Shown: positions 3,840 through 58,085 of the stretch, in pieces
How the letters are laid out: each line of letters opens with the position of its first letter
Position numbering within the stretch: the stretch's first letter is position 1
Origin: Akkermansiaceae bacterium UBA7890
GTDB taxonomy: Bacteria; Verrucomicrobiota; Verrucomicrobiia; Verrucomicrobiales; Akkermansiaceae
DNA: 64,000 nucleotides
Direction: 5' to 3'
Assembly (NCBI GenBank): GCA_002501065.1
Contig: DLRK01000196.1
Coordinates: forward strand, 133,048 to 197,047
Notes under the pieces: generated by a model
Seen by the model: only the letters and a program-made list of their open reading frames with translations
Told to the model about the DNA's origin: nothing
The model's database searches: none
Translations under genes and position numbers: made by a program

Positions 3840-6800
3840 TCACCTCCCCAGCAGATTGACGGCCCGGACGGTACGGGTGCGTTCCTCGATTTCAGGTGGC
3901 AGGTGTCCCTTGAACCAGGCCTTGGCCCGGTAGCGAAACTCATCGCCGTGGGGAAGGAACTTGAGGGGCGGGATGCCTGCCGCGAGGGGAAGTCGGTCTT
4001 GCGTGGTGGCGTGAGGGTCTTCGTGACAACCGACGCAGGACTTCATCTCACCTGGCCGCGTGTAGATCCAGGTGAGCTGGTTGCCGACCACCCGCCGGTC
4101 GCTGTCGAGGACCTGAAAGTGAACAAGCCGGTCCGCCGGTGCCTCGATGTAGAAGGAGCCATCCGGAAGAAGCGGAGCGGTTCCCAGAACGCGAGCGTGT
4201 GTCCCCCCGTGGTTCGTCCAGACCGGTCCGGTGTTGGTATGAGTACTGTGCCGTCCCACCACCGGCACGCCTTCGATCAGGCGAACAAGTTTGCCCCGCT
4301 GGGTCACTTTCTTTTCCCTGGTAGTGAATACGGAAGCACAGAGAAAGCGTCCGCTGTAGGCGCGTGGCAGGGTGCTGGCGGGCAGGACGGGCGGACGGCG
4401 CCGGGGAAGGATCGGACGGGCTTCGAACTCCGCGGCCGCCGGGTCGTTATAGAGGAGGGTGAGTGTCCTTGAAGAGGGATCGAATACATACAACCCCAGG
4501 TCAACTTCCCTGCGGTGGGGTGTTTTGAGAGTCGAAGCGCAGAGCACCCGGCCGTCAGGAAGCGGATATGGGGTGGTGTAGGAGCGCGTTGCGTTGTCGG
4601 GCGAAATGATGGTCTCACTATCTCGCCGAGGTCCAATCAGAGTGAGCCCACCCTGGGTGACGGTGATGATATTCCGGGAATCGGGCATGGGCTGGGGTTG
4701 GGTCATGCGCAGGACACGGTGAGTCAGCGGCGCTTCCTGTCCATCGGCCGGGGTGCGCGGACCGTGGTCCAGGTTCCGCCAGTAAGCCCGCCGCTCCGGA
4801 CCATAGAGGACGACGTCCTTCGTGCCGTCCGGCCGGACCGCATGCAGGGTCAGTTCGGTCTTGTTCCTCGAATAAAATACATCCAAACGGCTGAAGACGA
4901 TCCGACCGTCGGGCAGGATCGCGGGTTCGTTGTCGCGTCCGATATTGGTGGCGATCGGGCGCATGTTGCCGCCGTCGGCATCCATAACCCACAAGGCGGT
5001 GCACGGGTAGCCATGGTATTCGTCACGGATTCCACTGCGGGTGGTGGCGAAGGCGATGTGACCGTCCGGCAGGTAAACCGGCCCCACATCGTGGTAGGGG
5101 CCCTCCGTCAGTTGTTCCAATCCCGATCCATCGAGATTGATCCGAAAGAGGTGCCACCATGGATCGTCTTCACCGCGGTGGGCGAAGATCGCGTGCGAGG
5201 CATCCCACGAAAGTTCAAGGTCGCCTACGTAACCGCCATCAAAACTGGTCAGGGGGACCACTTCACCGTCCGGCCGGGCGGGTCGCAGAACATGGAGATT
5301 TCGTCCTGGCCGGTAAACCGGACCCGAGTCGGTTACGACATAGGTCTGCCTCCAACGGTCCGCCTGCTCGACCGTGCCAATGGTATTGGGAATGTTGTTG
5401 CTGCCCTTGATGAACACCACTCCATCTAAGGTGCTGGCTTCAGAATCGGGATTGCCTGTGGATCCGGGTGGGGGAGAGGGTTCAGGTTTTAGCTTCTCGC
5501 CCGGGGGCAGTTCAACGCCGTGAATGCGAAGAGCGTCCCTCGAAATGTGCCGCACACTGTGAAAGGAATGATGAGTCGCTGCTTTGCGTAGAGCAGTCAG
5601 AGCTGCTTCGTTGCCCAGGTCGCCCAACGCCTCCGCAGCGGCATGACGAATCTCCAGGACGGATTGCTCATCGTTGAGAATGCGGACAAGCAGGTCGGTG
5701 TGGCCGTGCGCATCGAGCAATCCGAGCGCCCGGATCAGTCCTTCGCGCCATCGGGGCGCCGGATCGTCGTATTCTTCGTTCTTGAATGTGGAATTGTAGC
5801 CATAGTCCGCTTCGGCCTTTGCTTCGGACAGAAGCCTGGCGATCGGATCGATGGCACGCTGGTCGCCGAGCCAGGCCAGCGTCTTGGCGGCATTGATCCG
5901 CACCCAGCCTTCTCCGTGCTGCAGGAGCTCCAGGAGCCGGGGTAGATCCTCCTTCTCGATGCAAACCGCCGGCAGCCAGCTCGCCATCCGGGAATCCTTG
6001 AAGATAGGCCAATCCACGGTCTCGTTCGATCCCGCCACCCGCCGGACCTGGCCCAGTCGCTGCATGGCATGCTCGCACGCTTCCTGCCGGAGCCCCGATT
6101 TTTTCATCAGGTAACGCGTCAGCAGATGCCCGACTTCCGGCTCGTAGAGCATGAAGGTGTCGTGGTCGCCCGGCAGATTGGCCATCAGCTGTGGGACGAT
6201 CCGGCGGAGTGCCATAAGGTCCCGGGGGGCATCCAGGGGCAACCGACAGAGTGCGTAGGCGATGGCGTAAGGGGTTTCCAACATTCGATCCTCACTCGGA
6301 AACCCCATTCTGTCGTCTTGCGGGACTCGTGCCGGATTACGGCCGTCCGGTTTCTTGGCGTAGCGGGGATAGGCGGCGAGAAGGGCGGGCACAGCCCGGT
6401 GATCCCCAAAATCCCCCAGGGCCTCCGCGGCGTGCCGGGCCCACTGCGTGTCATCCAGAAGCTGGATCAGGAACTGGAATCCGACTTCTTCCCGCAACCG
6501 CCCCAGGGCGCGGATTCCGGCCTGCATCATTGGTCCGTGGGGTTTGGCAGGTGCCCGGTTCAGACATTCAATGACCGCTTTGCTGGCCCCCCGCCCGCCC
6601 AATGCTCCCAGCGCCCGCAGGCCCCGCTCCCATCGCCATGCGGCGGCCGAGGCGATTTCATTTCCCGCATTGGGTTGGCCGTTGACTTCGATCTCGAAAA
6701 AGGTGGTGGGATAGGTCGAATTCTTCGAACCGAAGGAGGTGATGCGGATATAGCGAGCCTGGTGGGGGGGGAAGTCGATGGTCAACTTGACGGGCGATTC

Positions 6801-7562: not shown

Positions 7563-7695
7563 GAACTGCAGACGCTCCAGCCGCTGCGGGACGCCGGGGT
7601 CACCAGGTCGTCGGTGCGCAACCGCCTCGGAGAATTGAGTCTACGTTGCGTAATGGCCGGGATCACCAGGGGTCGACCTTTGGAATGCCTAAGCT

Positions 7696-7709
7696 ATGAC
7701 CTGGATCAA
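7696..7709. promoter_or_regulatory. FNR-type box, one mismatch (aTGACctggATCAA)
   Basis: Intergenic, centre 140.5 bp upstream of ATG 7562 (minus). It matches TTGAY-N4-RTCAA except at position 1. The spacer 'ctgg' is the same as in the box at 60164. Confidence 0.35.
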
Positions 7710-7858
7710 TTTGCGATCCGGGGGCTTCGGTGATGCCTGAACACGTGATGTGCTTCCTTTGACCCGGGTGGAATTGAGACCGGCGAACCCTTCCCCAGTG
7801 TTCTGTTCTTCTGTCCCTCTGCCGGAATGCGCCCGTTCAGCAATTCGTATCCAGAGCC

Positions 7859-11092: not shown

Positions 11093-11101
11093 GGGGCTGG
11101 G

Positions 11102-13566: not shown

Positions 13567-15717
13567 ATGCGTGATTCCTCCACCTGCGGCCGTCTCGCTG
13601 AGATTCTGGTCCTCATTCTCTCAATCCTGATCCACGGGGGGGGCCTCGCTGCCCCGGCATCTCCGGTGTTGCCGGAAGATGTTCAGGAAGTGATCTATGC
13701 CACCCGCCCGTATGGACCCGACAATCACTACTACGCGAATTTCGGCTACTATTGCCAGGAACCGGGGAAGAAGGCGTATCCGCAGGGTGGCAGGCTCTGC
13801 CGACTGGATCTGAGGACCGGGAAGGTGATCTCCCTGCTCGATGATCCGACCGGGGGGGTGCGGGATCCGCAGTTGCACTACGATGGAGACAAAGTCCTGT
13901 TTTCCTATCGCAAGGGTGGCTCCGAGCACTACCACCTCTACGAGATCAACATCGATGGCAGCGGTTTGAAACAACTGACGGATGGGCCCTATGACGATGT
14001 CGAACCGACCTACCTGCCCGACGACGGAATCGCATTCTGTTCGACACGTTGCAATCGCTGGGTGATGTGCTGGAAGGTCCCGGTTGCCATTCTCTACCGC
14101 TGTGATCCGGGCGGAAAAAACATCCGTGCTCTCAGCAGTAACGCCGTGACGGAGAACACGCCTTCGGTTCTGCCGGATGGTCGCATTCTCTACACCCGGT
14201 GGGAGTACGTGGAGCGCAGCCAGCTCTGTTACCACCACCTGTGGACGGTCAATCCGGATGGGACCGGACAGATGACCTATTACGGCAACATGTTCCCCTA
14301 CGGCATGAATCAGAGTATTGCCCGGCAATCCGGAAACCTGGTCGACTACAAGAATGTTCCCGGCGCGGTGGCGATGCTGGATGCTAAACCGATTCCCGGG
14401 ACGGGGAGGGTGGTCGCGATCTTTTCACCGGGTCACGGCCGCAAGGAGCACCAGGGATATGTGACCGTGATTGATCCGCGCAAGGGTCCGGATGACCCGC
14501 CATCGGCGCGCCGTATTCACAGTGACGGCGGGTGGCGCGATCCCTATTCGGTTGCGCCTGACCGGTTCCTGGTGGCCAGGGAGCGCGAGCTTCACCTGAT
14601 GGATGAACAGGGAAACACCAGGCTCCTGCACCGCTTGACGGGTGTGCGACCGGACATGCGACTGCACGAGCCGGTTCCAGTCCGGGCGCGGGCCCGGGAA
14701 GGAAACCCGGTCAAACGAATTGAAACTTCCGAGGAAACGGGCCGCATGATCCTGGCTGATGTCACGATTGGGCGCAACATGGAGGGAGTCCAGGCGGGCG
14801 AGATCAAGAAGCTCCTGGTCCTTGAGCAACTCCCTGGTCCCTTCCACGTCAGTCCGGGGTTCGACGGCATCAGCCTGTGGGGCGCCTTCACCCTCATGCG
14901 CATCATTGGCACCGTCCCGGTGGAGCCCGACGGATCGGCCTATTTTGAGGTCCCCGCGATGCGCAGCGTGTTCTTTGTCGCTCTCGACGAAAACGACCTG
15001 TCCATGAAGAAGATGCAGAGCTTCGTCACGGTGCAACCCGGCGAAGTGCTGAGTTGCGTTGGATGCCACGAGCCTCGAACCATGGCGCCACCCAGTTTGA
15101 ACCAGCCCTCCCTGCTGGCAGTGAGCAGGCCCCCCAGCAAGATCGAGCCGATTCCGGACGTGCCCCAGATCATCGACTTCCGGCGCCATGTTCAGCCAGT
15201 TCTCGACCGGCACTGCGTGGAGTGTCACGGCCGGGAGAGATCCGATGGCAACCTGCGCATCGATGCGGCACGAAGCGTGACTTCCCACGGAAGCGGACGC
15301 GTGTTGAGTTCCTATGTCGAACTGGTGAAGCGCCTCGGGGAAATTGCCGATGGCCGTAACGCGCATGGAAACCGGGCTCCGCGGACGATGGGCAGTTCGG
15401 CTGCCAAGCTCATGCAACGCATCGACGGCAGTCACTACGACGTGAAGGTCTCTCCCCGGGAACACAAACTGATCAGGCTCTGGCTGGATTCAGGCGCGGT
15501 GGCGAATGGCACCTATGCCATCATGGATGGCGGGACGCCCGAGCGACCCAGTCCGAATTACATCCGTGAAATGAAGCGCTACGGGGTTCTGCCGGAAGAC
15601 TTCGAGCTGGGCCGTGATCCGATCGACGTCTATGCCCTCGATGAGGCCTACTGGCGGACCTTCTGGTACCGGTCGCGGGTCGCCGGGCAGGAAGCTGCGT
15701 TAAAGGCGGGGAAATGA
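13567..15717 (+). CDS. HzsA-related beta-propeller c-type cytochrome, paralogue 2 (short type, 2 CxxCH)
   Basis: 716 aa with a signal-like N-terminus. PD40-like blades: YHLYEINIDGSGLKQLTDGPYDDVEPTYLPDDGIAFCSTR, LPDGRILYTRWEYVERSQLCYHHLWTVNPDGTG. Haem block: GTVPVEPDGSAYFEVPAMRSVFFVALDENDLSMKKMQSFVTVQPGEVLSCVGCHEP. Second module: VQPVLDRHCVECHG. Confidence 0.85.
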   Translation: MRDSSTCGRLAEILVLILSILIHGGGLAAPASPVLPEDVQEVIYATRPYGPDNHYYANFGYYCQEPGKKAYPQGGRLCRLDLRTGKVISLLDDPTGGVRDPQLHYDGDKVLFSYRKGGSEHYHLYEINIDGSGLKQLTDGPYDDVEPTYLPDDGIAFCSTRCNRWVMCWKVPVAILYRCDPGGKNIRALSSNAVTENTPSVLPDGRILYTRWEYVERSQLCYHHLWTVNPDGTGQMTYYGNMFPYGMNQSIARQSGNLVDYKNVPGAVAMLDAKPIPGTGRVVAIFSPGHGRKEHQGYVTVIDPRKGPDDPPSARRIHSDGGWRDPYSVAPDRFLVARERELHLMDEQGNTRLLHRLTGVRPDMRLHEPVPVRARAREGNPVKRIETSEETGRMILADVTIGRNMEGVQAGEIKKLLVLEQLPGPFHVSPGFDGISLWGAFTLMRIIGTVPVEPDGSAYFEVPAMRSVFFVALDENDLSMKKMQSFVTVQPGEVLSCVGCHEPRTMAPPSLNQPSLLAVSRPPSKIEPIPDVPQIIDFRRHVQPVLDRHCVECHGRERSDGNLRIDAARSVTSHGSGRVLSSYVELVKRLGEIADGRNAHGNRAPRTMGSSAAKLMQRIDGSHYDVKVSPREHKLIRLWLDSGAVANGTYAIMDGGTPERPSPNYIREMKRYGVLPEDFELGRDPIDVYALDEAYWRTFWYRSRVAGQEAALKAGK

Positions 15718-15856: not shown

Positions 15857-18202
15857 ATGGTGAAATTTCTCATGGTCGCCGGTCTGTCTGGTTTTCTTTT
15901 CTCGAGCCCCGCGGGCGCGAAGAACCAGGCAGTGCAATCCTACGGGAAGATCCACTCCGGTGAACTCGGCTTTACCAGGATCGTTGTCTGCCAGCGGAGG
16001 GAGCTTTCTCCCTCCCACGTCTACACCTACCACCAGGAAGGCCTGCGGCCGGGAGGTGGTCTCTGGATCTGCGACTTCTCCGGTGAAAAGGTGCGCAAGA
16101 CCATGATTCTCGGCAGCCCGGACGGCGTGATCCTTGATCTCAACCTCCACTACGACGGGCGCACCCTGCTCTTCAGCTGGAAGCGCACCATGGAGGATCA
16201 TTTCCAGGTTTACTCGATCGGAATTGACGGCGGAAACCTGAAACAGATCACCAATCACGACTCCAACAACTTCAATGCCTGCTGGCTCCCGGACGGTGGA
16301 ATCGCGTTTCTTTCCGACCGCAAGCCGGCTTACGCCTACTGCTGGAAGACGACCACTCCCATCCTGTGGCGCTGCGATGCCGACGGCAGCAGGCCGGTTC
16401 GGCTCAGCGCCAATTACCTCAATGATTTCACCCCGGTGGTCTTCTCCGACGGCCGGATCGTTTACAGTCGCTGGGAGTATGTTGACCGGCCGGCTATTCC
16501 GATCCAGAGCCTGTGGTCGATCAACCCCGACGGGACGGGGCTGGCCGGGGTGTTCGGTAACCGGATCCTGAGCCCGGCCACCTTCATGGATGCGCGGGAG
16601 ATTCCGGGAAGCGATGGAACGATCCTGTGCGTTCTGACCTCGCACAACGGACCCTGTCGCGGAGCAATCGGGATCGTCGACCCGAAACTCGGTTCCAACG
16701 CCCAGGCCGCTATCAGGAACATCACCCCGGAAATCGACATTGGACGGATTGACGATGCGCGACGGGGCAATGGCATGCGGGGTCCCTACCTCAACCCCTT
16801 TCCGGTCAACGGGACTTACTACCTGGTTTCCAAGGCCGGCGAGATCGAACTGCGTGATTACGGGATGCAATACACGGCCCGCATCCTGGGCAAATCAGGG
16901 GAGCTTGGCTTTTATGCGCCCCAGCCGGTAAGAGCACGCAGCCGGGAGAGGCTCCTGGCCTCCAGCCTCCGGGAACCAGAGGATGAGGAACAGGGGTGGG
17001 GGACCATCTTCATGCAGGACGTCTACGAGGGGCTCGGCGGCAAGGTCGAACGGGGATCGGTGAAGCGGTTGGCGGTGGTGCAGGAAGTGGAAAAACCGTT
17101 GGGAATCGATCCCTCCAAGCGGGCTTTTGGATTTCAGTTTCCGGTGGTCAGTGCCGGCGCCACCTATGCGCCCAAGAAGATCTGGGGTTACGCAAAGGTT
17201 GAGCAGGACGGATCCGCTCATTTCCGCGTTCCGGCCCGGGAGCCGATCTACTTCCTGCCGATTGATGGGGAGGGCCGGGCCGTACAGCGGATGCGCACCT
17301 TCACGCATCTCATGCCGGGCGAGGTGCAGAGTTGCGTCGGTTGTCACGCCGACCGCAACAATGCGACGCCCCGGAGGGAGAGGAAAAGCACCGTGGCCCA
17401 GTCACGTCAGGTGGAGGAACTGACCCCTCCCGAATGGGGTGTTTCCGGGTTCAGCTATGCCCAGCTCGTCCAGCCCGTCCTGGATCAGCACTGCGTCAGT
17501 TGCCACAGCCACGAAGAGCAGGCCGGCGATCTTGAACTGACCGGGGACAAGACGGACTTTTTCAATGTTTCGTATGACAACCTGATCCGGAAAGGGCGGG
17601 ACAGGTATGTTCAATGGATCTCCACCTACAATGGCCAGGAATCCAACATCCTCGAAATCGAACCGGGCCGCTGGGGGGCCAAGGCGTCCCTTCTCGGACA
17701 GGTCGTTGCGACCGGGCATCCGGACCAGGAAGGGAAAAAGCGGATCGATCTCCCACCCGACCAGAAGCACCGCCTCTACGCCTGGATGGATCTCAACAGT
17801 CCCTACTACCGGAGCAGTGACTCAGCCTACCGGGAAAACAAGGGGTGCCGTCAGATTGTGCCCGACGGACTGCCCGGTGTGTTTGCCGATGTCGCAAAGC
17901 GGCGCTGCGTTTCCTGCCATGCGGGCCTGCAGGATGTGTTCAAGTCTCCGGGTCGTGACAGTTTCTTTATCCGTCTCGATCATCCTGAACGCAACGGATT
18001 CCTCCGTGCTCCTCTTGCAAGGAAAGCCGGCGGCACCGAGGCGTGTGGAGCAGCCGTTTATGCCGGCACCGATGACCCGGATTACCGGAGGTTGCTGGAG
18101 ACCTTCGAAGAAACCCGTAAGATGCTGGAAGCCAGGCCCCGGATGGACATGCACCCCATGGGCACCCCCTTCAAGTGCCTTCCTGCAGCCGAGACCCCCT
18201 GA
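15857..18202 (+). CDS. HzsA-related beta-propeller c-type cytochrome, paralogue 3 (short type, 3 CxxCH)
   Basis: 781 aa, signal MVKFLMVAGLSGFLFSSPAGA. Blades: LPDGGIAFLSDR, FSDGRIVYSRWEYVDRPAIPIQSLWSINPDGTG. Haem block: GYAKVEQDGSAHFRVPAREPIYFLPIDGEGRAVQRMRTFTHLMPGEVQSCVGCHAD. Additional modules: VQPVLDQHCVSCHS and RCVSCHAG. Confidence 0.85.
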   Translation: MVKFLMVAGLSGFLFSSPAGAKNQAVQSYGKIHSGELGFTRIVVCQRRELSPSHVYTYHQEGLRPGGGLWICDFSGEKVRKTMILGSPDGVILDLNLHYDGRTLLFSWKRTMEDHFQVYSIGIDGGNLKQITNHDSNNFNACWLPDGGIAFLSDRKPAYAYCWKTTTPILWRCDADGSRPVRLSANYLNDFTPVVFSDGRIVYSRWEYVDRPAIPIQSLWSINPDGTGLAGVFGNRILSPATFMDAREIPGSDGTILCVLTSHNGPCRGAIGIVDPKLGSNAQAAIRNITPEIDIGRIDDARRGNGMRGPYLNPFPVNGTYYLVSKAGEIELRDYGMQYTARILGKSGELGFYAPQPVRARSRERLLASSLREPEDEEQGWGTIFMQDVYEGLGGKVERGSVKRLAVVQEVEKPLGIDPSKRAFGFQFPVVSAGATYAPKKIWGYAKVEQDGSAHFRVPAREPIYFLPIDGEGRAVQRMRTFTHLMPGEVQSCVGCHADRNNATPRRERKSTVAQSRQVEELTPPEWGVSGFSYAQLVQPVLDQHCVSCHSHEEQAGDLELTGDKTDFFNVSYDNLIRKGRDRYVQWISTYNGQESNILEIEPGRWGAKASLLGQVVATGHPDQEGKKRIDLPPDQKHRLYAWMDLNSPYYRSSDSAYRENKGCRQIVPDGLPGVFADVAKRRCVSCHAGLQDVFKSPGRDSFFIRLDHPERNGFLRAPLARKAGGTEACGAAVYAGTDDPDYRRLLETFEETRKMLEARPRMDMHPMGTPFKCLPAAETP

Positions 18203-19674: not shown

Positions 19675-22380
19675 TCACTTTGGCGTGGGGCGGAAGTCGG
19701 GGTGGTTGCGATATTTCACGTTGCGTCGCCCGAAGTAGCTGCCGTAGTAAGGGGAATTGGCATCGATCCAGGTGACCAGCCTGATGAACTCGGATCTGGA
19801 CAGGTTGACGTCCGCATGTCCCTCGCGGATCAACTGCACCAGTTTGCTCACGTGAGAACCCAGGGTGTAGGGTGGGACCGGTGAGGCATCCCCGGTTTTC
19901 GGTTCGTTTTCGTGAAAGACCTGCACGAGATCCTTCTGGAGGAGATTCTCGTAGGAACGGTTGAAGAGGGTGGTCAGTTCACCGCTCAAATCGAGATCCC
20001 CTTCGAGTTTCTCCGCGTTGTGGCAACTCACGCAGTGCCGGTCCAGGATCGGTTGGACATCGACCGCATAGTGAATGGGACGAGGTCCGGAGTCGCCGGG
20101 TTGTGGTCTCAATTCATGGGGCCGGTGGTGCAGGGCAAGCATGGGCCAGTTCCTGGGAGTCCACTTTTTGGGGCTGTGGCAACCGATACAGGAGCGCGAT
20201 TCACCCGGACGCAGATTCACGAATGATCGCATCCGTTGCACCTCCATGAAATCCTTGTCGAGGGCCTGGAAGTAGAGGTTGCGATCAGGTGGAACCGTGA
20301 AGTGGGCGGAGCCATCCGCTTCGACCGGGACGATGCCGAGCATACGCTTGGCGTGGAGGCTGCCATTCATGCTGACTACGGCGTGTTGCTGGTAGCTGCT
20401 GTCCCCGTCCCAGAATCGCCGGGCAGCCCAGGGCCGGGCCAGGGTCTCCATGACCCGGAGGTATTTGATCGTTCCGCGTTCCACGCCATTCAATCCCACG
20501 TACACGTCGGACATGATGAGAGTGGCGGCAGTGTTGGCGGAGTCTCTTGACGAGATTGCAACAGGAGGGGTTTTCCTCGGTTGGGCCCGGATCGGTTGCC
20601 AGCAGGAGATCGATGAGTCCCGATGGATCAGCACCCGGTTTCCGAATTCATCCAGGAGGTAGATTCCGTAGGCGGAGAGATCGTTGAATTCGCGGTCGGG
20701 GTTGCAGGTGACCAGGAAGAACTTATCGTCGAGGGGATAGGGATCCGTGTAAAGCGGCCCCTTGTAGTCCCGGCGCCAGCGGCCATTGCGCTTGTGAAAG
20801 TAGCCGTGTTCGGTCCGCACATCGACGTTCGGGGTGATATAGGTCATCGAGGGGCGGGTGCGGCCGGACTGCCGGGTATCGATACGAATGACGGTCCCGA
20901 CTCCCAGCGGCATGTGGGGCGCGCCGATCACCACGAACTGGCTGTTGCTTCCCGGGATGGCCCGCCCGTGAAGCAGGGTATCGGGAAAGGTGATATTGTT
21001 GCCGTAAATCTCGGTCGAACCACTTCCGTCCGGAAACATCGCCCAGAGGCATTTGATCACCACGTCCGGTTTGTCCACGTATTCCCAGCGGGTGTAAAGG
21101 ATGCGCCCATCGTTCATCACGCTGGGGGATCCCTCGCTCAGCGGACCATTCGAAAGAACCTCCAGGTTCCGGCCATCGGCGTCCATGCGGTAGAGGGTGG
21201 TGGTCGTGAACAGGTCAGGAGTGTCACAAAGGATGCCGCGTTCGCACCGGGTGGAGACGAAACAGATCCCCCCGTCCGGCAGGTAGCATGGGTGCATGTC
21301 GTCGGTGTGATGATGGTAGGCCTGATCGATCCTGTATTTCCTGATGCGCGACTGTTCGTCGGGTGGATCGAAGGTGATCTGGCGAAGCCCGCTCCCATCG
21401 AGGCCCACTTCCCAGATTCGGAATCCCTTTCCAATTCTGGGTTTGTAGCCAAAGACGGCCCGCTTGCCATCGAAGGACAGATCGCAGCGTCCGAAGATTC
21501 CTCCGTTCAACCGGGGCGCAAGTTCCGTCACCGTTCCGTCCGCCAGGGACAGGACGCACAGATTCCCGCCGAAATGTTTACACCCGTTGATGTAATCAGT
21601 GTAGTAATGATTGGACTGGTAGGTGTGCCGTTTGACAAAGAGCAGTTTGTCAAACTGCAGGAGGGGATTGTCGGAAAGCAGGGCTTCAGTTCTCAATTGT
21701 TCGATCTCGTCGGCAGCCTCCGGCCTGGTCCTGAGTTCGCGTTCCAGCACCGTCAACCGGGCCAGGTGATCCTCATGTCCGGGGTAATCATAGCGGGCCC
21801 CAAGATCTGTAATCGCTTTGCGCAAACCTGCGATATTCAGCTCGGTGAGCTGTTCTTCAGCTTCTGCGGCTGGATCACGAAAGAGATTCTTCTTTGGTGG
21901 GATCTTGCTCGAAGAGACTGTCAGTCCCCTGAGATGAGGCATGAATCCGGAACTTGCGATCCGGATCGTGTTCCGGCCACGCACCAGATTGAACGGACCG
22001 TGGGATTGCCAGCGAAGATCACCGCTGAAGAATCCGCCCGTGGGTTCCTGAAGCGCCACTTCAGGATGATCCTCTCCGTTGATGCTCAGTTGGCAGGGAC
22101 GAGGTTCCCCCGAGCAGTAGTAGAAATGGACGGAATAAGCCCCGCCCTGAACCTCGATCGCCCACTCCATGAATCCTCCCTTCCCAACGCAGAGGGTGAG
22201 GTTGTCGAAGGCGGCGTATTCGGCCGCAATGTTGGATGAGCGCGCCGAAAGCTCGCGAGCGGGAAGACTGACATCCTCGGCCCGGAGCAGAGACCCTCCC
22301 GGGAGAAGCAACGATATCAGCGCAAGCAGTGACTTGATCTGACACAGGTGGGGAGCCGCCGTCCTGGAGAATCGCTTCAT
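19675..22380 (-). CDS. HzsA-related beta-propeller c-type cytochrome, paralogue 4 (CBM6/35-like N-terminal domain, 2 CxxCH)
   Basis: Start is set at ATG 22380 (MKRFSRTAAPHLCQIKSLLALISLLLPGGSLLRAEDV), which overlaps the upstream stop as ATGA. The 223-codon 5' extension in the track is Pro/Arg/Gly-rich junk. CBM-like domain: GGAYSVHFYYCSGEPRPCQLSINGEDH...LVRGRNTIRIAS. Linker: NPLLQFDKLLFVKRH. Blades: LPDGGICFVSTR, NDGRILYTRWEYVDKPDVVIKCLWAMFPDGSG. Haem block: GIVPVEADGSAHFTVPPDRNLYFQALDKDFMEVQRMRSFVNLRPGESRSCIGCHSP. Second module: VQPILDRHCVSCHN. Confidence 0.85.
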   Translation of the reverse strand: MKRFSRTAAPHLCQIKSLLALISLLLPGGSLLRAEDVSLPARELSARSSNIAAEYAAFDNLTLCVGKGGFMEWAIEVQGGAYSVHFYYCSGEPRPCQLSINGEDHPEVALQEPTGGFFSGDLRWQSHGPFNLVRGRNTIRIASSGFMPHLRGLTVSSSKIPPKKNLFRDPAAEAEEQLTELNIAGLRKAITDLGARYDYPGHEDHLARLTVLERELRTRPEAADEIEQLRTEALLSDNPLLQFDKLLFVKRHTYQSNHYYTDYINGCKHFGGNLCVLSLADGTVTELAPRLNGGIFGRCDLSFDGKRAVFGYKPRIGKGFRIWEVGLDGSGLRQITFDPPDEQSRIRKYRIDQAYHHHTDDMHPCYLPDGGICFVSTRCERGILCDTPDLFTTTTLYRMDADGRNLEVLSNGPLSEGSPSVMNDGRILYTRWEYVDKPDVVIKCLWAMFPDGSGSTEIYGNNITFPDTLLHGRAIPGSNSQFVVIGAPHMPLGVGTVIRIDTRQSGRTRPSMTYITPNVDVRTEHGYFHKRNGRWRRDYKGPLYTDPYPLDDKFFLVTCNPDREFNDLSAYGIYLLDEFGNRVLIHRDSSISCWQPIRAQPRKTPPVAISSRDSANTAATLIMSDVYVGLNGVERGTIKYLRVMETLARPWAARRFWDGDSSYQQHAVVSMNGSLHAKRMLGIVPVEADGSAHFTVPPDRNLYFQALDKDFMEVQRMRSFVNLRPGESRSCIGCHSPKKWTPRNWPMLALHHRPHELRPQPGDSGPRPIHYAVDVQPILDRHCVSCHNAEKLEGDLDLSGELTTLFNRSYENLLQKDLVQVFHENEPKTGDASPVPPYTLGSHVSKLVQLIREGHADVNLSRSEFIRLVTWIDANSPYYGSYFGRRNVKYRNHPDFRPTPK

Positions 22381-32036: not shown

Positions 32037-32102
32037 AACCGGGACTGGCTGAGCCGGAAGGGCTGATTCCGGGTGACGGACCCGGTGTGCAGTATTTTGT
32101 CC

Positions 32103-54066: not shown

Positions 54067-54190
54067 CAAGAACGACTCACTGCATCCAGTCCGGCAGATT
54101 TCCCGCCGGAACTGGTTGGCGTTGCTTGGCTCGGTGCTTGGTTCGATCGTGGAGATGGTCTTCACGGTTGAGGAGGAAGCAGTTTCAAGG

Positions 54191-55552: not shown

Positions 55553-55598
55553 CAGAGCTTCTTTTTGTTCGTTGAGGCAAACAGGTTGCGGGTGGCAG

Positions 55599-58085
55599 TC
55601 ACAGTTGGTTCGGCCGGTACCACAGAGATTTCCAGTAGGCCTGGTCGAGGGCGTAGGGATCGAGGAAGGACTTTTCGCTTTGATTCGCGGGCAGGATTCC
55701 ATAGCGCTTCATTTCCCTCAGATAGTCATCACGCGGACGGAACCCCGGCATGTCGAAGCGCTTGATGGTCTCGAGGTGAAACTTCGCGGCGCGCACGACC
55801 GCGAGCAGTTTCTGGTAATCGGGGTCTTCCGTGTCCGTGAACACCGAAGCGACCTGGCCCTTTGCCTCGCCCTCCCTCACCCTGCAGAGGCCCAGTCCCC
55901 CGGCCTCCTTTGCGAGAGGCGCGAGGATGAGAGGAGATTTCTGCGGGCGAGTCAGATTGTAGACGATATGGCGGGAGAGGCGCAGTTTGAGATCGTCTTC
56001 CTGAAGCGCCCAGGGCGGAAAGCGATCCACGGAGGGAGTTTCGGGCAATGCCGTGGGTCCGGAGTGGCACTGCTGGCAGCGCCGGTTGATTGCGGCCCGG
56101 CCGTCGCCCACGGCGGGCCAGGAGAAGTCCGCATGATTGCTCCTGTTTTCTTCGTAGCCTCCGATCATGCCAGTCCCAAGAGCGGCATAGGTGCCGGGGT
56201 AGGGGGCGCCGGTGTCGATCCAGAGGGCGAGCATCCTGCGCTCATGCTCGCTGACCTTGGCGCCATAGTGGCTGCCGTCAGACTTCTGGATCAAGGGGCT
56301 GGCAGAGGATCCGATCGTGCGGGGCGCGTAGTTGCTTCGGGGCCGGTTGCGGCCGTCCACGAATTGTCTTCGCACCGTCAGAATGTAGTAGCTGTGGGAG
56401 TAGAGCGGACCCCGGTCACCGGTGAGGATCACGTCGCCTGCCCGGGGACCGCCGTGCTCTGTCGCTTCGTAGTCGTGACAGGCCACGCAGTGCCTATCGA
56501 GAATCGGCTGGATGTCCCGTGGGAAATCGAAAACGTCAGGCGTTCCGGGGATAGGCTTGATCCGGCTTGCCGGGCGCCGCAGGGCGGCCAGATCGGGAAT
56601 GGGGAGGGGAGTGCGTGTGCGTTGTTCATGACATCCGACGCAACTGGTGACCTCGCCCGGCTGCACGGTAGTGAAGCTCTGCATGCGCTTGACCGACAGG
56701 CCGTCTTTGTCCCGTGCCACGAACAGGACACTGCGAAGGGCGGGCAGTTCCAGGTAGGCCGAGCCGTCTGGCTCGACCGGGACGGAGCCGAGAACCCGCT
56801 GCAGAGTGAAGGTGCCACCGTAACTGAGTGGCTCCATGCCACCGGTGTAGTTGATCGGCTTGGGCAGCGTTTCCAGGACCAGCAGGTCCTTGATCTCACC
56901 GCGCTCGATTCCGCTCATGTTGCGGCCCTCGTAGATATCGGCGAGGATGAGGCGGCCGGTGTCCTGTTGAGGTTCCGCCCTGGATGGAATCACGTGCTCG
57001 CGCTCACGGGGCCGGATCGGCCGCGGTTCGTGACACTGCAGTCCAGCCGCCCGGTCGGATTCGGGCAGTTGATAGATGGTCCGCACCTGTCCGTCTCCAT
57101 CCATCACCATCAACTCCGTTCCCCGTGCCACGAGGAAGTGATCCGGCTCGAGAGCGTATGGATCGCGAAAGTTGTTGTCCTTGTTGAGTATCCGGGCCGA
57201 GGGGAGATGATCCGGTCCCATCCCCGGATCCACAATTGCGACGGCCCCATTGTGTTCACGGCGACCGTGCGAGGGAGAGAAGATTGCCACCACCGTGTTC
57301 CCTCCCGGGATCGGTTTGGCGTCGATCATGACAATGCCGGGATGCTGGTTGCCGTAGAACACCATCTGTCCGGTCCCGTCCGGATTGGCAGTCCAGAGAT
57401 GGTGGTAATGCACCTGGCTGCGATCGATGTATTCCCAGCGCTGATAGAGGATGCGCCCGTCGGGCAGAACCCATGGCGTGTTGTCGTGCTCGTTGTTGCT
57501 GGAAATCATGCGGATGTTTCCGCCTTTGGCATCGCAGCGGTAGAGCACCGCGACCTGAGTCAGCCAGCAGTTCACCCAGCGGTTGCAGCGGCTCGAACAG
57601 AACATGATCCCGCCATCCGGCAGGTAAGTGGGTTCGATGTCGTCGCAATCGCCGTCTGTGAGTTGCTTCAGTCCGGTGCCGTTGATGCCGATCTCGTAGA
57701 GATGGAAGTGAGTGGAGCTGCCCTTGCGGTAGGCGAAGAGAATCTTCTTCCCGTTGTAGTGAACCTGAGGATCACGGATGCTTCCCTTCCCGTCCTCCAG
57801 CAGAACGGTGAGCGTCCCGGTCCGGGGGTCGAGGCGGCAGAGTTTGCCTCCCCCGTCGGAGTAGGCCATCCGGTCCGTGTCCGCTGCATAATAGCTGAAA
57901 TTCGCGTACCAGTGTCCATCCTTGCCCGGCTTGCGTACCGCGAAGACGAGATCGTCCGTAATTCCGGACCCGGGTGATTCAGTTCCCTGGAGACTGCCGC
58001 CCAGGAGAGGGAGAAACAGAACCAGAAACAATCCGAGCCATCCTGGACCAGGTTTTGTTTCTGCCACTCTATTACTCCTGATCAT
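55599..58085 (-). CDS. HzsA-related beta-propeller c-type cytochrome, paralogue 8 (short type, 3 CxxCH)
   Basis: 828 aa with a signal-like N-terminus (WLGLFLVLFLPLLGGSLQG). Blades: FHLYEIGINGTGLKQLTDGDCDDIEPTYLPDGGIMFCSSR, LPDGRILYQRWEYIDRSQVHYHHLWTANPDGTG. Haem block: GSVPVEPDGSAYLELPALRSVLFVARDKDGLSVKRMQSFTTVQPGEVTSCVGCHEQ. Additional modules: IQPILDRHCVACHD, RCQQCHSG. It is closest in layout to paralogue 2. Confidence 0.85.
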   Translation of the reverse strand: MIRSNRVAETKPGPGWLGLFLVLFLPLLGGSLQGTESPGSGITDDLVFAVRKPGKDGHWYANFSYYAADTDRMAYSDGGGKLCRLDPRTGTLTVLLEDGKGSIRDPQVHYNGKKILFAYRKGSSTHFHLYEIGINGTGLKQLTDGDCDDIEPTYLPDGGIMFCSSRCNRWVNCWLTQVAVLYRCDAKGGNIRMISSNNEHDNTPWVLPDGRILYQRWEYIDRSQVHYHHLWTANPDGTGQMVFYGNQHPGIVMIDAKPIPGGNTVVAIFSPSHGRREHNGAVAIVDPGMGPDHLPSARILNKDNNFRDPYALEPDHFLVARGTELMVMDGDGQVRTIYQLPESDRAAGLQCHEPRPIRPREREHVIPSRAEPQQDTGRLILADIYEGRNMSGIERGEIKDLLVLETLPKPINYTGGMEPLSYGGTFTLQRVLGSVPVEPDGSAYLELPALRSVLFVARDKDGLSVKRMQSFTTVQPGEVTSCVGCHEQRTRTPLPIPDLAALRRPASRIKPIPGTPDVFDFPRDIQPILDRHCVACHDYEATEHGGPRAGDVILTGDRGPLYSHSYYILTVRRQFVDGRNRPRSNYAPRTIGSSASPLIQKSDGSHYGAKVSEHERRMLALWIDTGAPYPGTYAALGTGMIGGYEENRSNHADFSWPAVGDGRAAINRRCQQCHSGPTALPETPSVDRFPPWALQEDDLKLRLSRHIVYNLTRPQKSPLILAPLAKEAGGLGLCRVREGEAKGQVASVFTDTEDPDYQKLLAVVRAAKFHLETIKRFDMPGFRPRDDYLREMKRYGILPANQSEKSFLDPYALDQAYWKSLWYRPNQL

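What the first reader, a model, noticed from the sequence alone, without database searches (positions are those of the whole stretch)
3840..58085. Eight paralogous HzsA-architecture beta-propeller c-type cytochromes clustered in one non-anammox island
Seen in sequence. The eight CDS are 3840..7562, 13567..15717, 15857..18202, 19675..22380, 22377..25145, 25152..28484, 35826..38315 and 55599..58085. All share PD40/TolB-like blades (LPDG[RG]I.F.S.R; RWEY[VI][DE][RK]; (W/F)T.NPDGTG-type blade ends, e.g. HHLWTVNPDGTG) followed by a highly conserved block: G[TSI]VPVE.DGSA.F.VP ... [MLV][RQK].[MN][RQ][ST][FWS] ... PGE...C.GCH. Seven of the eight then carry [VI]QP[VI][LI]D[RQ]HC..CH, and three carry a third CxxCH. 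Together with the di-haem peroxidase fusion, I count 20 CxxCH motifs in 64 kb. Established knowledge: a propeller plus a middle haem domain plus a C-terminal haem domain is the published architecture of hydrazine synthase subunit alpha. Databases carry an HZS_alpha middle-domain family and 'HzsA-related' proteins of unknown function in PVC bacteria. Inference: there are no HzsB/HzsC-like partners, no octahaem HAO/HDH-like gene and no anammox context. The neighbours are instead sulfatase, GH32, heparinase-like, BNR_4 and Tat-exported sugar oxidoreductase genes. This looks like an uncharacterised periplasmic redox family that has radiated locally. It could act on glycan-derived or small N/S-containing substrates, or serve as electron acceptors for the periplasmic dehydrogenases.
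Basis: partly seen in the sequence, partly recalled or inferred. Interest (0 to 1): 0.85.

Follow-up and report, generated by a model that had tools for sequence, protein, structure and literature searches.

The report
Eight HzsA-related cytochromes, one HzsBC-like partner

Summary
All eight CDS are intact, have signal-peptide-like N-termini and match Pfam HZS_alpha above threshold. A profile of the eight hits HzsA (5C2V chain A) at E=5.6e-43. A model of H8 matches HzsA over 793 columns. There are 20 CxxCH motifs against about 0.12 expected.

- A partner exists. The ORF 61 nt upstream of H8 is a fused HzsB+HzsC homologue. This pairing recurs, on the same strand, in 43 of 61 informative loci from other phyla.
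- The copies did not radiate locally. They are 26-35% identical to each other (H2/H8 53%). H2-H8 each have 54-69% relatives in other organisms, and no two are sisters in a tree.

None is hydrazine synthase. NCBIfam equivalog scores are 45-71 against a cutoff of 800. The equivalents of alpha-Tyr591, gamma-Cys165 and gamma-His144 are absent. The host is Roseibacillus, presumed aerobic.

The family is large (at least 4,445 clusters at 50% identity). NCBI names members "HzsA-related protein", and three 2023-2025 papers discuss it. Function is untested.

Carbohydrate-binding and FGE-like fusions hint at a glycan-linked periplasmic redox role. These are new members of a known, uncharacterised kind.

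The parts
3840..7562 (-). H1, 1240 aa. Domains in order: signal peptide, HEAT repeats, F5/8 type C (discoidin) domain, HEAT repeats, PD40/TolB-type propeller, HZS_alpha haem domain. It has a single CxxCH (CVGCH at 1176) and no second haem domain. It is the most divergent copy.
   Evidence: Pfam HEAT_2 1.4e-38, F5_F8_type_C 8.5e-14, HZS_alpha 1e-18. CxxCH count. Identity to the other copies is 26-31%. The exact sequence is annotated in Roseibacillus MAGs as 'HEAT repeat protein' or hypothetical.
13567..15717 (+). H2, 716 aa. It comprises a propeller, an HZS_alpha haem domain (CVGCH at 497) and a second haem domain (CVECH at 550). It is the closest copy to H8 (53% identity). H3 lies 139 nt downstream on the same strand.
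   Evidence: Pfam HZS_alpha 1.2e-20. H2 and H8 share a clade of 28 leaves that includes 26 sequences from other organisms.
15857..18202 (+). H3, 781 aa. It comprises a propeller, an HZS_alpha domain (CVGCH at 493), a second haem (CVSCH at 546) and a third haem (CVSCH at 684). A BNR_4 gene (18218-19585) follows 15 nt downstream.
   Evidence: Pfam HZS_alpha 1.6e-23. phmmer against 5c2v_A gives E=3.2e-07, collinear. The nearest cluster representative, P0247, is 69% identical.
19675..22380 (-). H4, 901 aa. Domains in order: signal peptide, CBM6-like module (about residues 70-165), helical linker, propeller, HZS_alpha domain (CIGCH at 731), second haem (CVSCH at 783). Its start overlaps the H5 stop by 4 nt.
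   Evidence: Pfam HZS_alpha 3e-25. The N-terminal module matches, by BLASTP at E 4e-10 to 1e-7, regions of P0156, P0165 and P0173 that Pfam calls CBM_6. Pfam does not hit H4 itself there. The nearest representative, P0245, is 60% identical.
22377..25145 (-). H5, 922 aa. It comprises a propeller, an HZS_alpha domain (CVGCH at 494), a second haem (CIRCH at 546), a third haem (CMRCH at 682) and a C-terminal extension of about 200 aa with no family match. It starts 6 nt after the H6 stop.
   Evidence: Pfam HZS_alpha 3.5e-23. The extension has no Pfam hit. The nearest representative, P0242, is 68% identical.
25152..28484 (-). H6, 1110 aa. Domains in order: helical N-terminal linker, propeller, HZS_alpha domain (CTGCH at 574), second haem (CVSCH at 624), C-terminal FGE-sulfatase-fold domain (829-1089). 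The FGE-like domain has no cysteine pair in the RGGSW... segment.
   Evidence: Pfam FGE-sulfatase 9.3e-42, HZS_alpha 4.1e-31. The best NCBIfam hits for the C-terminal domain are PvdO and GldK, both far below their cutoffs. The same fusion occurs at 62-76% identity in Limisphaerales, Pirellulales, Thermoguttaceae and Fuerstiella, and NCBI names it 'SUMF1/EgtB/PvdO family nonheme iron enzyme'.
35826..38315 (+). H7, 829 aa. It comprises an N-terminal helical extension, a propeller, an HZS_alpha domain (CAGCH at 663) and a second haem (CVKCH at 715). It abuts the co-directional 1506-aa ThuA-GDSL-DUF7133-HEAT-cupredoxin ORF (38312-42832).
   Evidence: Pfam HZS_alpha 2.2e-22. Domains of the neighbouring ORF. 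The nearest representative, P0263, is 68% identical.
55599..58085 (-). H8, 828 aa. It comprises a propeller, an HZS_alpha domain (CVGCH at 482), a second haem (CVACH at 533) and a third haem (CQQCH at 670). It is the alpha-like member of an HZS-like gene pair.
   Evidence: Pfam HZS_alpha 6.5e-19. The AF2 model has pLDDT 74.6 and pTM 0.75. The top Foldseek hit is 5c2v_A at E=3.1e-27. Orthologues are 57-67% identical across Planctomycetota, Verrucomicrobiota, Hydrogenedentota and Acidobacteriota, and some are named 'HzsA-related protein'.
58147..60009 (-). Fused HzsB+HzsC-like partner, 620 aa as called in public assemblies (the mechanical ORF runs to 60201). It comprises a signal peptide, a YVTN-type beta-propeller and a di-haem peroxidase-like domain (CVSCH and CALCH). 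It lies 61 nt upstream of H8 on the same strand.
   Evidence: 5c2v_B E=4.1e-29 and 5c2v_C E=1.1e-22. NCBIfam hydrazine_BC 1.5e-48, at 165.5 bits against a cutoff of 1250. Public gene call of 620 aa. An orthologue lies next to the H8 orthologue on the same strand in 43 of 80 loci.

Best explanation
The window comes from a marine Roseibacillus (Verrucomicrobiota). It holds eight anciently diverged members of the large, uncharacterised 'HzsA-related' family. Each is a Sec-exported protein with a TolB/PD40-type beta-propeller, an HZS_alpha mono-haem c domain, and zero to two further c-type haem domains. Several also carry accessory modules: HEAT plus discoidin in H1, a CBM6-like module in H4, and an FGE-fold domain in H6.

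Shown: each copy belongs to its own conserved subfamily with closer relatives in other organisms than in this window. The cluster is therefore a collection of old paralogues, not a recent local burst.

Shown: H8 is encoded directly after a fused HzsB+HzsC homologue, and this pairing is conserved across phyla.

Inferred: H8 and this partner form a periplasmic HZS-like alpha/beta-gamma complex carrying five haems.

Shown by alignment: the residues that make hydrazine synthase special are missing. These are the alpha-Tyr591 proximal ligand, the gamma-Cys165 third thioether and gamma-His144.

Inferred: the first haem of these proteins is a normally His-ligated haem. A family-conserved Met 14 residues before the CxGCH motif may be its sixth ligand. 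On that reading the alpha-like proteins would mainly pass electrons, and any small-molecule chemistry (peroxide-type or NO-type reduction or oxidation) would happen at the peroxidase-like haem of the beta-gamma partner.

Inferred: the seven partnerless copies are free-standing periplasmic cytochromes. Their propeller and carbohydrate-binding or FGE-like modules would target them to glycan-derived substrates or to partner enzymes of the surrounding polysaccharide-utilisation genes. None of them makes hydrazine.
For: Family identity and homology to HzsA:
- Pfam HZS_alpha matches 8 of 8 above threshold.
- The profile of the eight hits 5c2v_A at E=5.6e-43 across three collinear stretches.
- Foldseek of the H8 model gives 5c2v_A at E=3e-27 over 793 columns; the next hits are TolB propellers only.

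Not HzsA or HZS:
- NCBIfam hydrazine_alpha scores are 45-71 bits against a cutoff of 800.
- The hydrazine_BC score is 165.5 bits against 1250.
- There is no Tyr four residues after the CxxCH histidine in any copy, nor among the four commonest residues at that position in 158 family sequences.
- In the partner, the gamma-Cys165 equivalent is Ala or Ser in 41 of 43 orthologues, and the gamma-His144 equivalent is Ser, Ile, Ala or Val.

Partner:
- The beta-gamma-like gene lies on the same strand, mostly within 50-500 bp, in 43 of 61 loci that have at least 2.5 kb on both flanks. It is upstream in 26 and downstream in 17.
- It is the only widely conserved neighbour.

Ancient paralogy.

Family-specific haem-1 pocket (158 sequences):
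- D(-23) in 157, M(-14) in 141, a PGE motif at -6 to -4, CxGCH in all 158, and E(+1) in 139.
- HzsA has Ala, Pro-Tyr-His and Tyr at the M, PGE and E positions (HzsA sequence read from the alignments).

Glycan link:
- H1 carries a discoidin domain and H4 a CBM6-like module.
- H8 orthologues carry PL4 CBM-like or discoidin domains, and H6 orthologues carry CBM_6.
- Family representatives carry SASA esterase, CBM-like, F5/8 type C and DUF4960 domains.
- H8 and its partner head a co-directional gene string: GFO/IDH/MocA (Tat), RidA-like, heparinase II/III-like, MR/MLE, cupredoxin, DUF7133/DUF6807.

Literature: PMC12758564 and PMC10732223 reach the same 'HZS-like but not hydrazine synthase' reading for related gene pairs.
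Against: - No member of this family has been characterised biochemically, so every functional step is inference.
- The His/Met ligation is deduced from conservation only. I could not inspect model coordinates or place a haem.
- H1 has Gln, and 13 of 158 family members have Glu, at the Met position.
- 18 of 61 informative loci lack an adjacent beta-gamma-like gene, and seven of the eight window copies have none. The alpha-like proteins must therefore be able to work without it, which weakens the picture of them as an 'electron-transfer subunit of a complex'.
- Beyond the partner gene, the neighbourhood is poorly conserved: GFO-type genes occur in 6-7 loci per cluster, RidA-like genes in 6-9 and sulfatase in 5 of 80. 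The glycan context seen here may simply reflect how common such genes are in PVC genomes.
- The commonest N-terminal extension in the family has no Pfam match and only weak PDB profile hits (E 0.006-1).
Confidence: 0.6

Rival explanations
1. H8 and its beta-gamma-like partner, and perhaps the other copies, carry out HZS-type nitrogen chemistry short of anammox. The peroxidase-like haem would reduce NO to hydroxylamine or ammonium as a periplasmic detoxification or scavenging route, using only the first half-reaction proposed for hydrazine synthase.
For: The partner is specifically closer to HzsB and HzsC (E 4e-29 and 1e-22) than to true cytochrome c peroxidases (E 0.13). It shares with HzsC an invariant His in the (K/R/E)HG motif, at the position of HzsC's DMHG. 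A RIC/ScdA di-iron repair gene, a type linked to nitrosative stress (recalled from the literature, not tested), lies inside the island at 31055-31735. HZS haem gamma-I is proposed to reduce NO to hydroxylamine (PMC12607021).
Against: The gamma-I hallmarks (Cys165 thioether, His144) are absent. The window holds no nitrite or NO reductase genes and no HAO genes. Fusions to carbohydrate-binding modules and FGE-like domains are hard to explain on this reading. The RIC gene is a single weak association.
Confidence: 0.12
2. The proteins are true hydrazine synthase alpha subunits, so the organism has cryptic anammox-like potential. This is how some metagenomic surveys treat HZS_alpha-domain proteins.
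For: The proteins share the three-domain fold and the HZS_alpha domain, and one copy has an adjacent beta-gamma-like gene. PMC11828985 interprets comparable proteins from 10 phyla as expanding the range of anammox bacteria.
Against: Equivalog scores are 6-13% of the NCBIfam cutoffs for both alpha and beta-gamma. The equivalents of alpha-Tyr591, gamma-Cys165 and gamma-His144 are absent. The window has no octahaem HDH or HAO. The host is a Roseibacillus with a haem A synthase gene in the window, which points to aerobic respiration. Orthologues occur in at least 594 stretches of GTDB species genomes, including Acidobacteriota and Verrucomicrobiota. PMC12758564 rejects this reading for related clades on the same residue grounds.
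Confidence: 0.02
3. The eight proteins are dedicated periplasmic electron acceptors or shuttles for the neighbouring Tat-exported GFO/IDH/MocA and DUF7133-type sugar dehydrogenases. They would pass electrons on to cupredoxins or the respiratory chain. The HZS-like pair would be incidental.
For: A Tat-type GFO gene lies 46 nt downstream of H8, and another lies near H2. H7 abuts a 1506-aa ThuA-DUF7133-HEAT-cupredoxin gene. Two GFO-type clusters recur next to H8 orthologues in 6-7 loci each. The conserved Met and His residues are compatible with six-coordinate electron-transfer haems.
Against: The recurrence is low (about 13 of 80 loci), and such oxidoreductases may simply be common in PVC genomes (my knowledge, not tested). 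This rival does not explain the large conserved propeller, the strong conservation of the haem-1 pocket, or the conserved beta-gamma partner.
Confidence: 0.2
4. The alpha-like proteins are themselves catalysts that act on glycans or glycan-derived groups, for example by oxidative modification or cleavage, or by processing sulfated or aminated sugars. The carbohydrate-binding modules would deliver the substrate to the haem-1 pocket.
For: Fusions to carbohydrate-binding or carbohydrate-active modules recur: discoidin, CBM6, PL4 CBM-like, SASA esterase and DUF4960. A polar pocket is strongly conserved around haem 1, with D(-23), PGE and E(+1). The genes are embedded among sulfatase, GH32, heparinase-like and BNR_4 genes.
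Against: A conserved Met that may occupy the sixth coordination site argues against an open catalytic haem. I know of no precedent for c-type haem glycan-active enzymes of this fold. The carbohydrate context is not conserved around orthologues.
Confidence: 0.15

Closest known systems
Hydrazine synthase alpha subunit, HzsA (Kuenenia stuttgartiensis, PDB 5C2V chain A)
   Same: Both have the same three-part layout: an N-terminal TolB-like propeller, a middle domain ending in a CxGCH haem motif, and a C-terminal class-I-like cytochrome c domain. Profile E=5.6e-43. The H8 model matches over 793 columns with TM 0.55-0.59. D(-23), Q(-16), T(-12), W/F(-11) and P(-6) before the haem motif are shared.
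   Different: Identity is about 19%. Equivalog scores are far below the cutoff. There is no Tyr591-type proximal ligand. HzsA's Ala(-14), Tyr-His(-5, -4) and Tyr(+1) are replaced by family-conserved Met, Gly-Glu and Glu. The window proteins also show extra third haem domains, carbohydrate-binding, HEAT or FGE-like fusions, Sec signal peptides, and presence in a non-anammox host presumed to be aerobic.
'HzsA-related protein' / 'HZS_alpha domain-containing protein' of non-anammox bacteria (NCBI naming; described in PMC12758564, PMC10732223 and PMC11828985)
   Same: This is the family the eight proteins belong to. H8 is 60-63% identical to proteins NCBI names 'HzsA-related protein'. The variable alpha/beta-gamma gene order and the partner without extra N-terminal haems match the description of 'clade IV' in PMC12758564. 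The missing key residues match that paper's conclusion.
   Different: The papers concentrate on alpha/beta-gamma pairs, mostly in anaerobes or sediments. Here one genome segment holds eight copies, seven without a partner, in a marine heterotroph presumed to be aerobic. The copies include conserved FGE-fold and carbohydrate-binding fusions that the passages I read do not discuss. I could not place the window proteins in the published trees.
Fused hydrazine synthase beta-gamma subunit (Scalindua type; NCBIfam NF052342) and HzsB/HzsC (5C2V chains B and C)
   Same: The partner at 58147-60009 has a YVTN-type propeller followed by a di-haem peroxidase-like domain with two CxxCH. It hits chains B and C at E 4e-29 and 1e-22. 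It has an invariant His at the position of HzsC's DMHG motif. It lies next to an alpha-like gene.
   Different: It scores 165.5 bits against a cutoff of 1250. The gamma-Cys165 and gamma-His144 equivalents are absent. A different Cys, seven residues before the first CxxCH, is conserved in 37 of 43 orthologues.
Bacterial di-haem cytochrome c peroxidase / MauG family
   Same: The C-terminal half of the partner shows two c-haem motifs and the P-T-L...P-Y-L-H-D-G signature region. It hits Pfam CCP_MauG at 6.1e-07.
   Different: Direct similarity to solved peroxidases is marginal (E 0.13-0.25). The position aligned to the inter-haem Trp of CCP/MauG is Ser, Ile, Ala or Val (Trp position as described in PMC12758564). 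The domain is fused to a propeller and paired with an alpha-like protein.
TolB / PD40 six-bladed beta-propellers
   Same: The N-terminal halves match TolB by profile (E about 2e-07) and by fold (E about 1e-11 over about 327 columns).
   Different: TolB has no haem domains and works in the Tol-Pal envelope system. Only the propeller fold is shared.

Membership tests
Hydrazine synthase alpha subunit (HzsA; NCBIfam NF052339 equivalog) | Three-domain architecture: propeller, middle haem domain, C-terminal cytochrome c domain | tested here: met
   Collinear profile match to 5c2v_A at E=5.6e-43. Foldseek match over 793 columns. H1 lacks the third domain.
Hydrazine synthase alpha subunit (HzsA; NCBIfam NF052339 equivalog) | Equivalog-level sequence score (cutoff 800 bits) | tested here: not met
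   44.7-71 bits for the eight proteins.
Hydrazine synthase alpha subunit (HzsA; NCBIfam NF052339 equivalog) | Tyr591 as proximal ligand of haem alpha-I, four residues after the CxxCH histidine (PMC12607021, PMC12758564) | tested here: not met
   The residue at +4 is H, T, N, K, T, N, H and T in H1 to H8. Tyr is not among the four commonest residues at +4 in 158 family sequences.
Hydrazine synthase alpha subunit (HzsA; NCBIfam NF052339 equivalog) | Zinc site formed by His587 and Cys303 | not tested
   I had no full HzsA sequence or model coordinates with which to locate the Cys303 equivalent. PMC12758564 reports it is not conserved in related homologues.
Hydrazine synthase alpha subunit (HzsA; NCBIfam NF052339 equivalog) | Bis-His haem alpha-II with distal His772 | tested here: inconclusive
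   The second CxxCH is present in 7 of 8 copies. A His in a 'GH' motif about 70 residues downstream is conserved in all seven. Its equivalence to His772 was not established.
Hydrazine synthase alpha subunit (HzsA; NCBIfam NF052339 equivalog) | Adjacent genes for beta and gamma subunits, and hydrazine dehydrogenase or HAO-type octahaem genes in the genome | tested here: not met
   Only H8 has a beta-gamma-like neighbour. No CDS in the 64-kb window has more than three CxxCH. The rest of the genome was not available.
HzsA-related / HZS_alpha-domain family (Pfam PF18582) | PF18582 match above the gathering score (26.6 bits) | tested here: met
   68.1-107.8 bits in all eight.
HzsA-related / HZS_alpha-domain family (Pfam PF18582) | TolB/PD40-type propeller N-terminal to the haem domain, and a CxGCH motif closing the domain | tested here: met
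   Pfam PD40 matches at E 5.8e-07 to 1.5e-03 in 6 of 8 (some below the gathering score), and TolB profile and fold matches. CxGCH is present in 8 of 8 and in 150 of 150 representatives.
HzsA-related / HZS_alpha-domain family (Pfam PF18582) | Close, full-length similarity to proteins so named by NCBI | tested here: met
   H8 is 60-63% identical over 94-98% of its length to P0048, P0064, P0086 and P0092, all named 'HzsA-related protein'. H2-H7 are 54-69% identical to family cluster representatives. H1 reaches only 31%.
Hydrazine synthase beta-gamma fusion (NCBIfam NF052342) for the partner at 58147-60009 | Propeller plus di-haem domain homologous to HzsB and HzsC | tested here: met
   5c2v_B E=4.1e-29 and 5c2v_C E=1.1e-22. 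Two CxxCH invariant in 43 orthologues.
Hydrazine synthase beta-gamma fusion (NCBIfam NF052342) for the partner at 58147-60009 | Curated score cutoff (1250 bits) | tested here: not met
   165.5 bits.
Hydrazine synthase beta-gamma fusion (NCBIfam NF052342) for the partner at 58147-60009 | Third covalent haem link through gamma-Cys165, and gamma-His144 near haem gamma-I | tested here: not met
   The aligned positions are Ala in the window protein. In the 43 orthologues they are Ala or Ser, and Ser, Ile, Ala or Val, respectively. This result depends on the alignment.
Formylglycine-generating enzyme (for the C-terminal domain of H6) | FGE-sulfatase fold (PF03781) | tested here: met
   E=9.3e-42 over residues 829-1089.
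Formylglycine-generating enzyme (for the C-terminal domain of H6) | Pair of catalytic copper-binding cysteines after the RGGS motif (motif recalled from the literature) | tested here: not met
   H6 reads RGGSWRDEPARGTSTFRQNYEPW, with no cysteine. The best NCBIfam matches are PvdO and GldK, not FGE, and all are below cutoff. The reference motif is from memory, so this should be treated as provisional.

The most novel reading that the evidence does not exclude
The HzsA-related family may be a major, unrecognised class of glycan-targeted periplasmic multihaem redox proteins in PVC bacteria, Acidobacteriota and allies. On this reading, carbohydrate-binding modules (discoidin, CBM6-like, PL4 CBM-like) bring a propeller-haem unit to polysaccharide-derived substrates. 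There it would either catalyse oxidative chemistry itself or feed electrons to partner enzymes, including the peroxidase-like beta-gamma protein. The anammox hydrazine synthase would then be a late, specialised offshoot of this heterotrophic machinery.
Probability: 0.15. Interest if true: 0.7.

Novelty: new member of a known kind. Interest (0 to 1): 0.4.

Why it matters
There are three reasons.

- **Annotation.** Proteins of this kind are being counted as 'hzsA' in metagenomic nitrogen-cycle surveys, and anammox potential has been inferred for ten phyla on that basis (PMC11828985). A marine heterotroph, presumed aerobic, that carries eight copies plus a beta-gamma-like partner, all lacking the HZS-specific residues, is a clear counter-example. 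It supports the more cautious reading of PMC12758564.
- **Scale.** The family is very large, with at least 4,445 clusters at 50% identity. H8-type orthologues occur in at least 594 stretches of GTDB species genomes and are conserved at about 60% identity across phyla. No member has a tested function.
- **A testable lead.** The recurrent fusions to carbohydrate-binding and FGE-fold modules give a concrete hypothesis about what the ancestors of hydrazine synthase were doing.

The window itself adds no new kind of system.

Tried and rejected
- **Recent local duplication: rejected.** Inter-paralogue identity is 26-35%. Closer relatives exist elsewhere. No two window copies are sisters in the neighbour-joining tree.
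- **Real hydrazine synthase: rejected.** This rests on the equivalog scores and the missing key residues.
- **Genome scan with the eight-paralogue alignment: failed.** No stretch was conserved enough. I replaced it with an H8-orthologue alignment.
- **Conserved neighbours other than the beta-gamma-like gene: not found.** I clustered all ORFs from 80 loci. Nothing else exceeded 8 loci. DUF1800, DUF1501 and the heparinase-like gene were not found next to any orthologue.
- **Pfam on unassigned segments: no result.** The H4 and H7 N-terminal segments gave no matches; the H5 and H8 C-terminal segments gave only sub-threshold cytochrome-type hits. The H4 module was later linked to CBM_6 only transitively.
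- **Commonest N-terminal extension of the family: unresolved.** It has no Pfam hit. A profile against the PDB gave only weak matches (E 0.006-1) to RsgI3, sialate O-acetylesterase and GH2 sugar-binding domains. This is suggestive of a galactose-binding-like sandwich but not significant.
- **ORF 60177-61625(-): discarded as spurious.** It has no family match. The opposite-strand DUF1800 gene (60231-61790) is the one called in public assemblies.
- **Dietl et al. 2015 structure paper: not available.** The paper is not held. HZS features were taken from PMC12607021 and PMC12758564.
- **Direct check of haem ligation geometry: not possible.** The tools do not expose model coordinates.
- **Pfam PF26549 and PF26550: could not be named.** They are listed for orthologues but are absent from the local Pfam copy.

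Full report
**Observation**

The eight CDS are real and intact. Each has an ATG start, one terminal stop and a hydrophobic, signal-peptide-like N-terminus. The H1, H3, H6 and H8 products occur as exactly these sequences in public gene calls.

All eight match Pfam HZS_alpha (PF18582) at E 1e-18 to 4e-31, well above the gathering score.

The CxxCH tally is correct. There are 18 motifs in the eight proteins and 2 in the ORF at 58147-60201, and none elsewhere in the window. Composition predicts 0.11. Shuffling within proteins gave a mean of 0.12 and never more than 2.

All pairwise comparisons are significant at E 1e-24 or better.

**Homology to hydrazine synthase alpha**

- A profile built from the eight proteins finds HzsA (PDB 5C2V chain A) at E=5.6e-43. 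The three collinear stretches cover the propeller, the middle haem domain and the C-terminal haem domain. The next hits are TolB-type propellers.
- H3 alone finds 5c2v_A at E=3e-07.
- An AlphaFold2 model of H8, built on 24 sequences, has pLDDT 74.6 and pTM 0.75.
- In Foldseek that model has 5c2v_A as its only full-length match, at E=3.1e-27, TM 0.55/0.59 and 793 columns. TolB follows with about 327 columns.

The architectural claim is therefore correct.

**These are not HzsA**

The NCBIfam equivalog model for hydrazine synthase alpha gives 45-71 bits against a cutoff of 800.

In HZS, haem alpha-I has Tyr591 as its proximal ligand, four residues after the motif histidine. That histidine binds zinc instead (PMC12607021, PMC12758564). 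None of the eight has Tyr at +4. Tyr is also not among the four commonest residues there in 158 family sequences.

Around this haem the family conserves the following in 158 sequences:
- D at -23 (157 sequences)
- Met at -14 (141)
- a PGE motif at -6 to -4
- CxGCH (all 158)
- Glu at +1 (139)

HzsA keeps the Asp, Pro and Gly. It has Ala, Tyr-His and Tyr at the Met, Gly-Glu and Glu positions (HzsA sequence as printed). I read this as a normally His-ligated haem with a different, family-specific pocket, and Met as a possible sixth ligand. This is inference; I could not inspect coordinates.

**The missed partner**

Public assemblies call it as 620 aa, at 58147-60009. It is a fused HzsB+HzsC homologue:
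- 5c2v_B at E=4.1e-29 and 5c2v_C at E=1.1e-22, against E=0.13 for the best true peroxidase
- the NCBIfam beta-gamma fusion model at E=1.5e-48, but only 165.5 bits against a cutoff of 1250

It ends 61 nt before H8 on the same strand.

I fetched 80 loci with H8 orthologues from GTDB species genomes. The loci came from Planctomycetota, Verrucomicrobiota, Hydrogenedentota and Acidobacteriota at 56-64% identity. A beta-gamma-like gene lies on the same strand next to the H8 orthologue in 43 of them. That is 43 of the 61 loci with at least 2.5 kb on both flanks. It is upstream in 26 and downstream in 17. It is the only widely conserved neighbour.

In 43 orthologues:
- both CxxCH motifs and a His in a (K/R/E)HG motif, at the position of HzsC's DMHG, are invariant;
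- the gamma-Cys165 equivalent is Ala or Ser;
- the gamma-His144 equivalent is Ser, Ile, Ala or Val.

H8 and this protein therefore most likely form an HZS-like complex that lacks the HZS-specific catalytic residues.

**Not a local radiation**

- The window copies are 26-35% identical to each other, with H2/H8 at 53%.
- H8 has orthologues at 57-79% identity in several phyla.
- H6 keeps its FGE-fold fusion at 62-76% identity in Limisphaerales, Pirellulales, Thermoguttaceae and Fuerstiella.
- H2-H7 each have a 54-69% relative among 50%-identity cluster representatives.
- In a neighbour-joining tree of the eight plus 150 representatives, no two window copies are sisters. The H2/H8 clade holds 28 leaves.
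- Arrays are common elsewhere: 26 of 80 loci have two to four family genes within 22 kb.

**Family size and what is already known**

The eight-protein profile finds 4,445 clusters (50% identity) at E<=1e-30, among 1.84 billion representatives. It finds 36,691 at E<=1e-10, a number that probably includes propeller-only proteins. Lengths of the listed hits range from 589 to 1774 aa.

NCBI already names members in several ways: 'HzsA-related protein', 'PD40 domain-containing protein', 'polysaccharide lyase family protein', 'discoidin domain-containing protein' and 'SUMF1/EgtB/PvdO family nonheme iron enzyme'.

Three papers treat such proteins.
- PMC10732223 proposes a broader HZS-like enzyme family with other substrates.
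- PMC12758564 describes co-localised alpha and fused beta-gamma homologues in non-anammox bacteria and shows that key residues are not conserved. The variable gene order and the lack of extra N-terminal haems seen here fit that paper's 'clade IV'.
- PMC11828985 counts such proteins as hzsA and infers anammox potential in ten phyla.

**Organism and context**

Exact matches are annotated in Roseibacillus sp. MAGs, and members of the same 90%-identity clusters occur in Tara Oceans data. The host is therefore a marine Verrucomicrobium. The window encodes haem A synthase CtaA.

The window also holds sulfatase, GH32, BNR_4, heparinase II/III-like, MR/MLE, ThuA, DUF7133, cupredoxin, DUF1800/DUF1501 and GFO/IDH/MocA genes. 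Some of the GFO genes carry RRxFLK Tat motifs.

The partner and H8 head a co-directional string of genes: GFO, RidA-like, heparinase-like, MR/MLE, cupredoxin, DUF7133/DUF6807. H6-H5-H4 and H2-H3-BNR_4 are tightly spaced, operon-like sets.

**Hints to function**

Accessory modules point to carbohydrates.
- H1 carries a discoidin domain.
- H4's N-terminus matches regions that Pfam calls CBM_6 in H6 orthologues.
- H8 orthologues carry PL4 CBM-like or discoidin domains.
- Family representatives carry SASA esterase, CBM-like, F5/8 type C, DUF7402 and DUF4960.
- The commonest N-terminal extension has no Pfam match and only weak profile hits to sugar-binding sandwiches.

H6's FGE-fold domain has no cysteine after RGGSW. 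By the FGE motif as I recall it, it is therefore not a formylglycine-generating enzyme.

**Verdict**

The interpretation needs two corrections: a partner exists, and the copies are ancient.

The best reading is a set of periplasmic multihaem proteins of a known but uncharacterised family. One of them is in an HZS-like pair. They are probably electron-transfer or peroxidase-type machinery with a glycan connection, and they are not hydrazine synthase.

Novelty is low: these are new members of a known kind. Interest is moderate. The family is huge, its function is open, and its misannotation as hzsA has consequences for nitrogen-cycle surveys.

Noticed in passing
window 31055-31735 (-), with 32073-33161 (+) and 33175-34008 (-): A RIC/ScdA-type di-iron protein (ScdA_N plus hemerythrin) sits in the middle of the island. 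It lies next to haem A synthase CtaA and a DsbD_N-domain protein. Proteins of this type are usually linked to nitrosative or oxidative damage repair (recalled from the literature, not tested). It is only a weak hint to the chemistry of the neighbouring haem proteins.
   Followed up: no
window 58147-60009 (-); orthologues in L007-L082: The HzsBC-like partner has a Cys seven residues before its first CxxCH (C-F-Q-x-W-x-S-C-x-S-C-H). It is conserved in 37 of 43 orthologues, and HzsC has Ser there. It could be an extra haem link or a disulfide partner.
   Followed up: partly
window 38312-42832 (+): This is a 1506-aa multidomain ORF: ThuA, GDSL lipase-like, DUF7133, HEAT and a C-terminal cupredoxin. 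It starts where H7 ends. The cupredoxin sits at the C-terminus, where I recall related PVC DUF7133 proteins carrying a CxxCH haem domain (recalled, not tested). A second stand-alone cupredoxin gene is at 48595-49674.
   Followed up: no
window 25152-28484 (-), residues 829-1089 of H6: The FGE-sulfatase-fold domain fused to H6 has no cysteine in the RGGSW... segment. Its best NCBIfam matches are PvdO and GldK, not FGE. The fusion is conserved at 62-76% identity across Verrucomicrobiota and Planctomycetota. Most orthologues are 140-220 aa longer than H6, and some of them carry an N-terminal CBM_6 module that the window copy lacks.
   Followed up: partly
window 1140-3083 (-), 60231-61790 (+), 61792-63078 (+): DUF1800 genes lie at both ends of the window, and a DUF1501 gene follows the one at 60231-61790. 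The mechanical ORF 60177-61625 (-) is a shadow of that DUF1800 gene and is not a gene.
   Followed up: yes
window 53038-54165 (-); L-loci: A RidA / chorismatase-like (FkbO-type) gene lies two genes downstream of H8. Similar genes recur near H8 orthologues in 6-9 of 80 loci. After the beta-gamma-like gene this is among the most frequent neighbours, on a par with Tat-type GFO oxidoreductases and sulfatases. The link is unexplained.
   Followed up: partly
whole window; L001-L006: The exact H8 protein is on 22 public contigs from many independent metagenomes (ENA, JGI, Logan, NCBI), and members of its 90%-identity cluster occur in Tara Oceans data. The best match returned from GTDB species genomes was only 64% identical. 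Either this Roseibacillus lineage has no close representative in that set or the pattern scan missed it.
   Followed up: no
orthologues P0010, P0012, P0047 and others: Precomputed annotations list two recent Pfam families, PF26549 and PF26550, on H8 orthologues. They flank the HZS_alpha domain. They are absent from the local Pfam copy, so I could not name them. They may already formalise the propeller and C-terminal domains of this family.
   Followed up: partly
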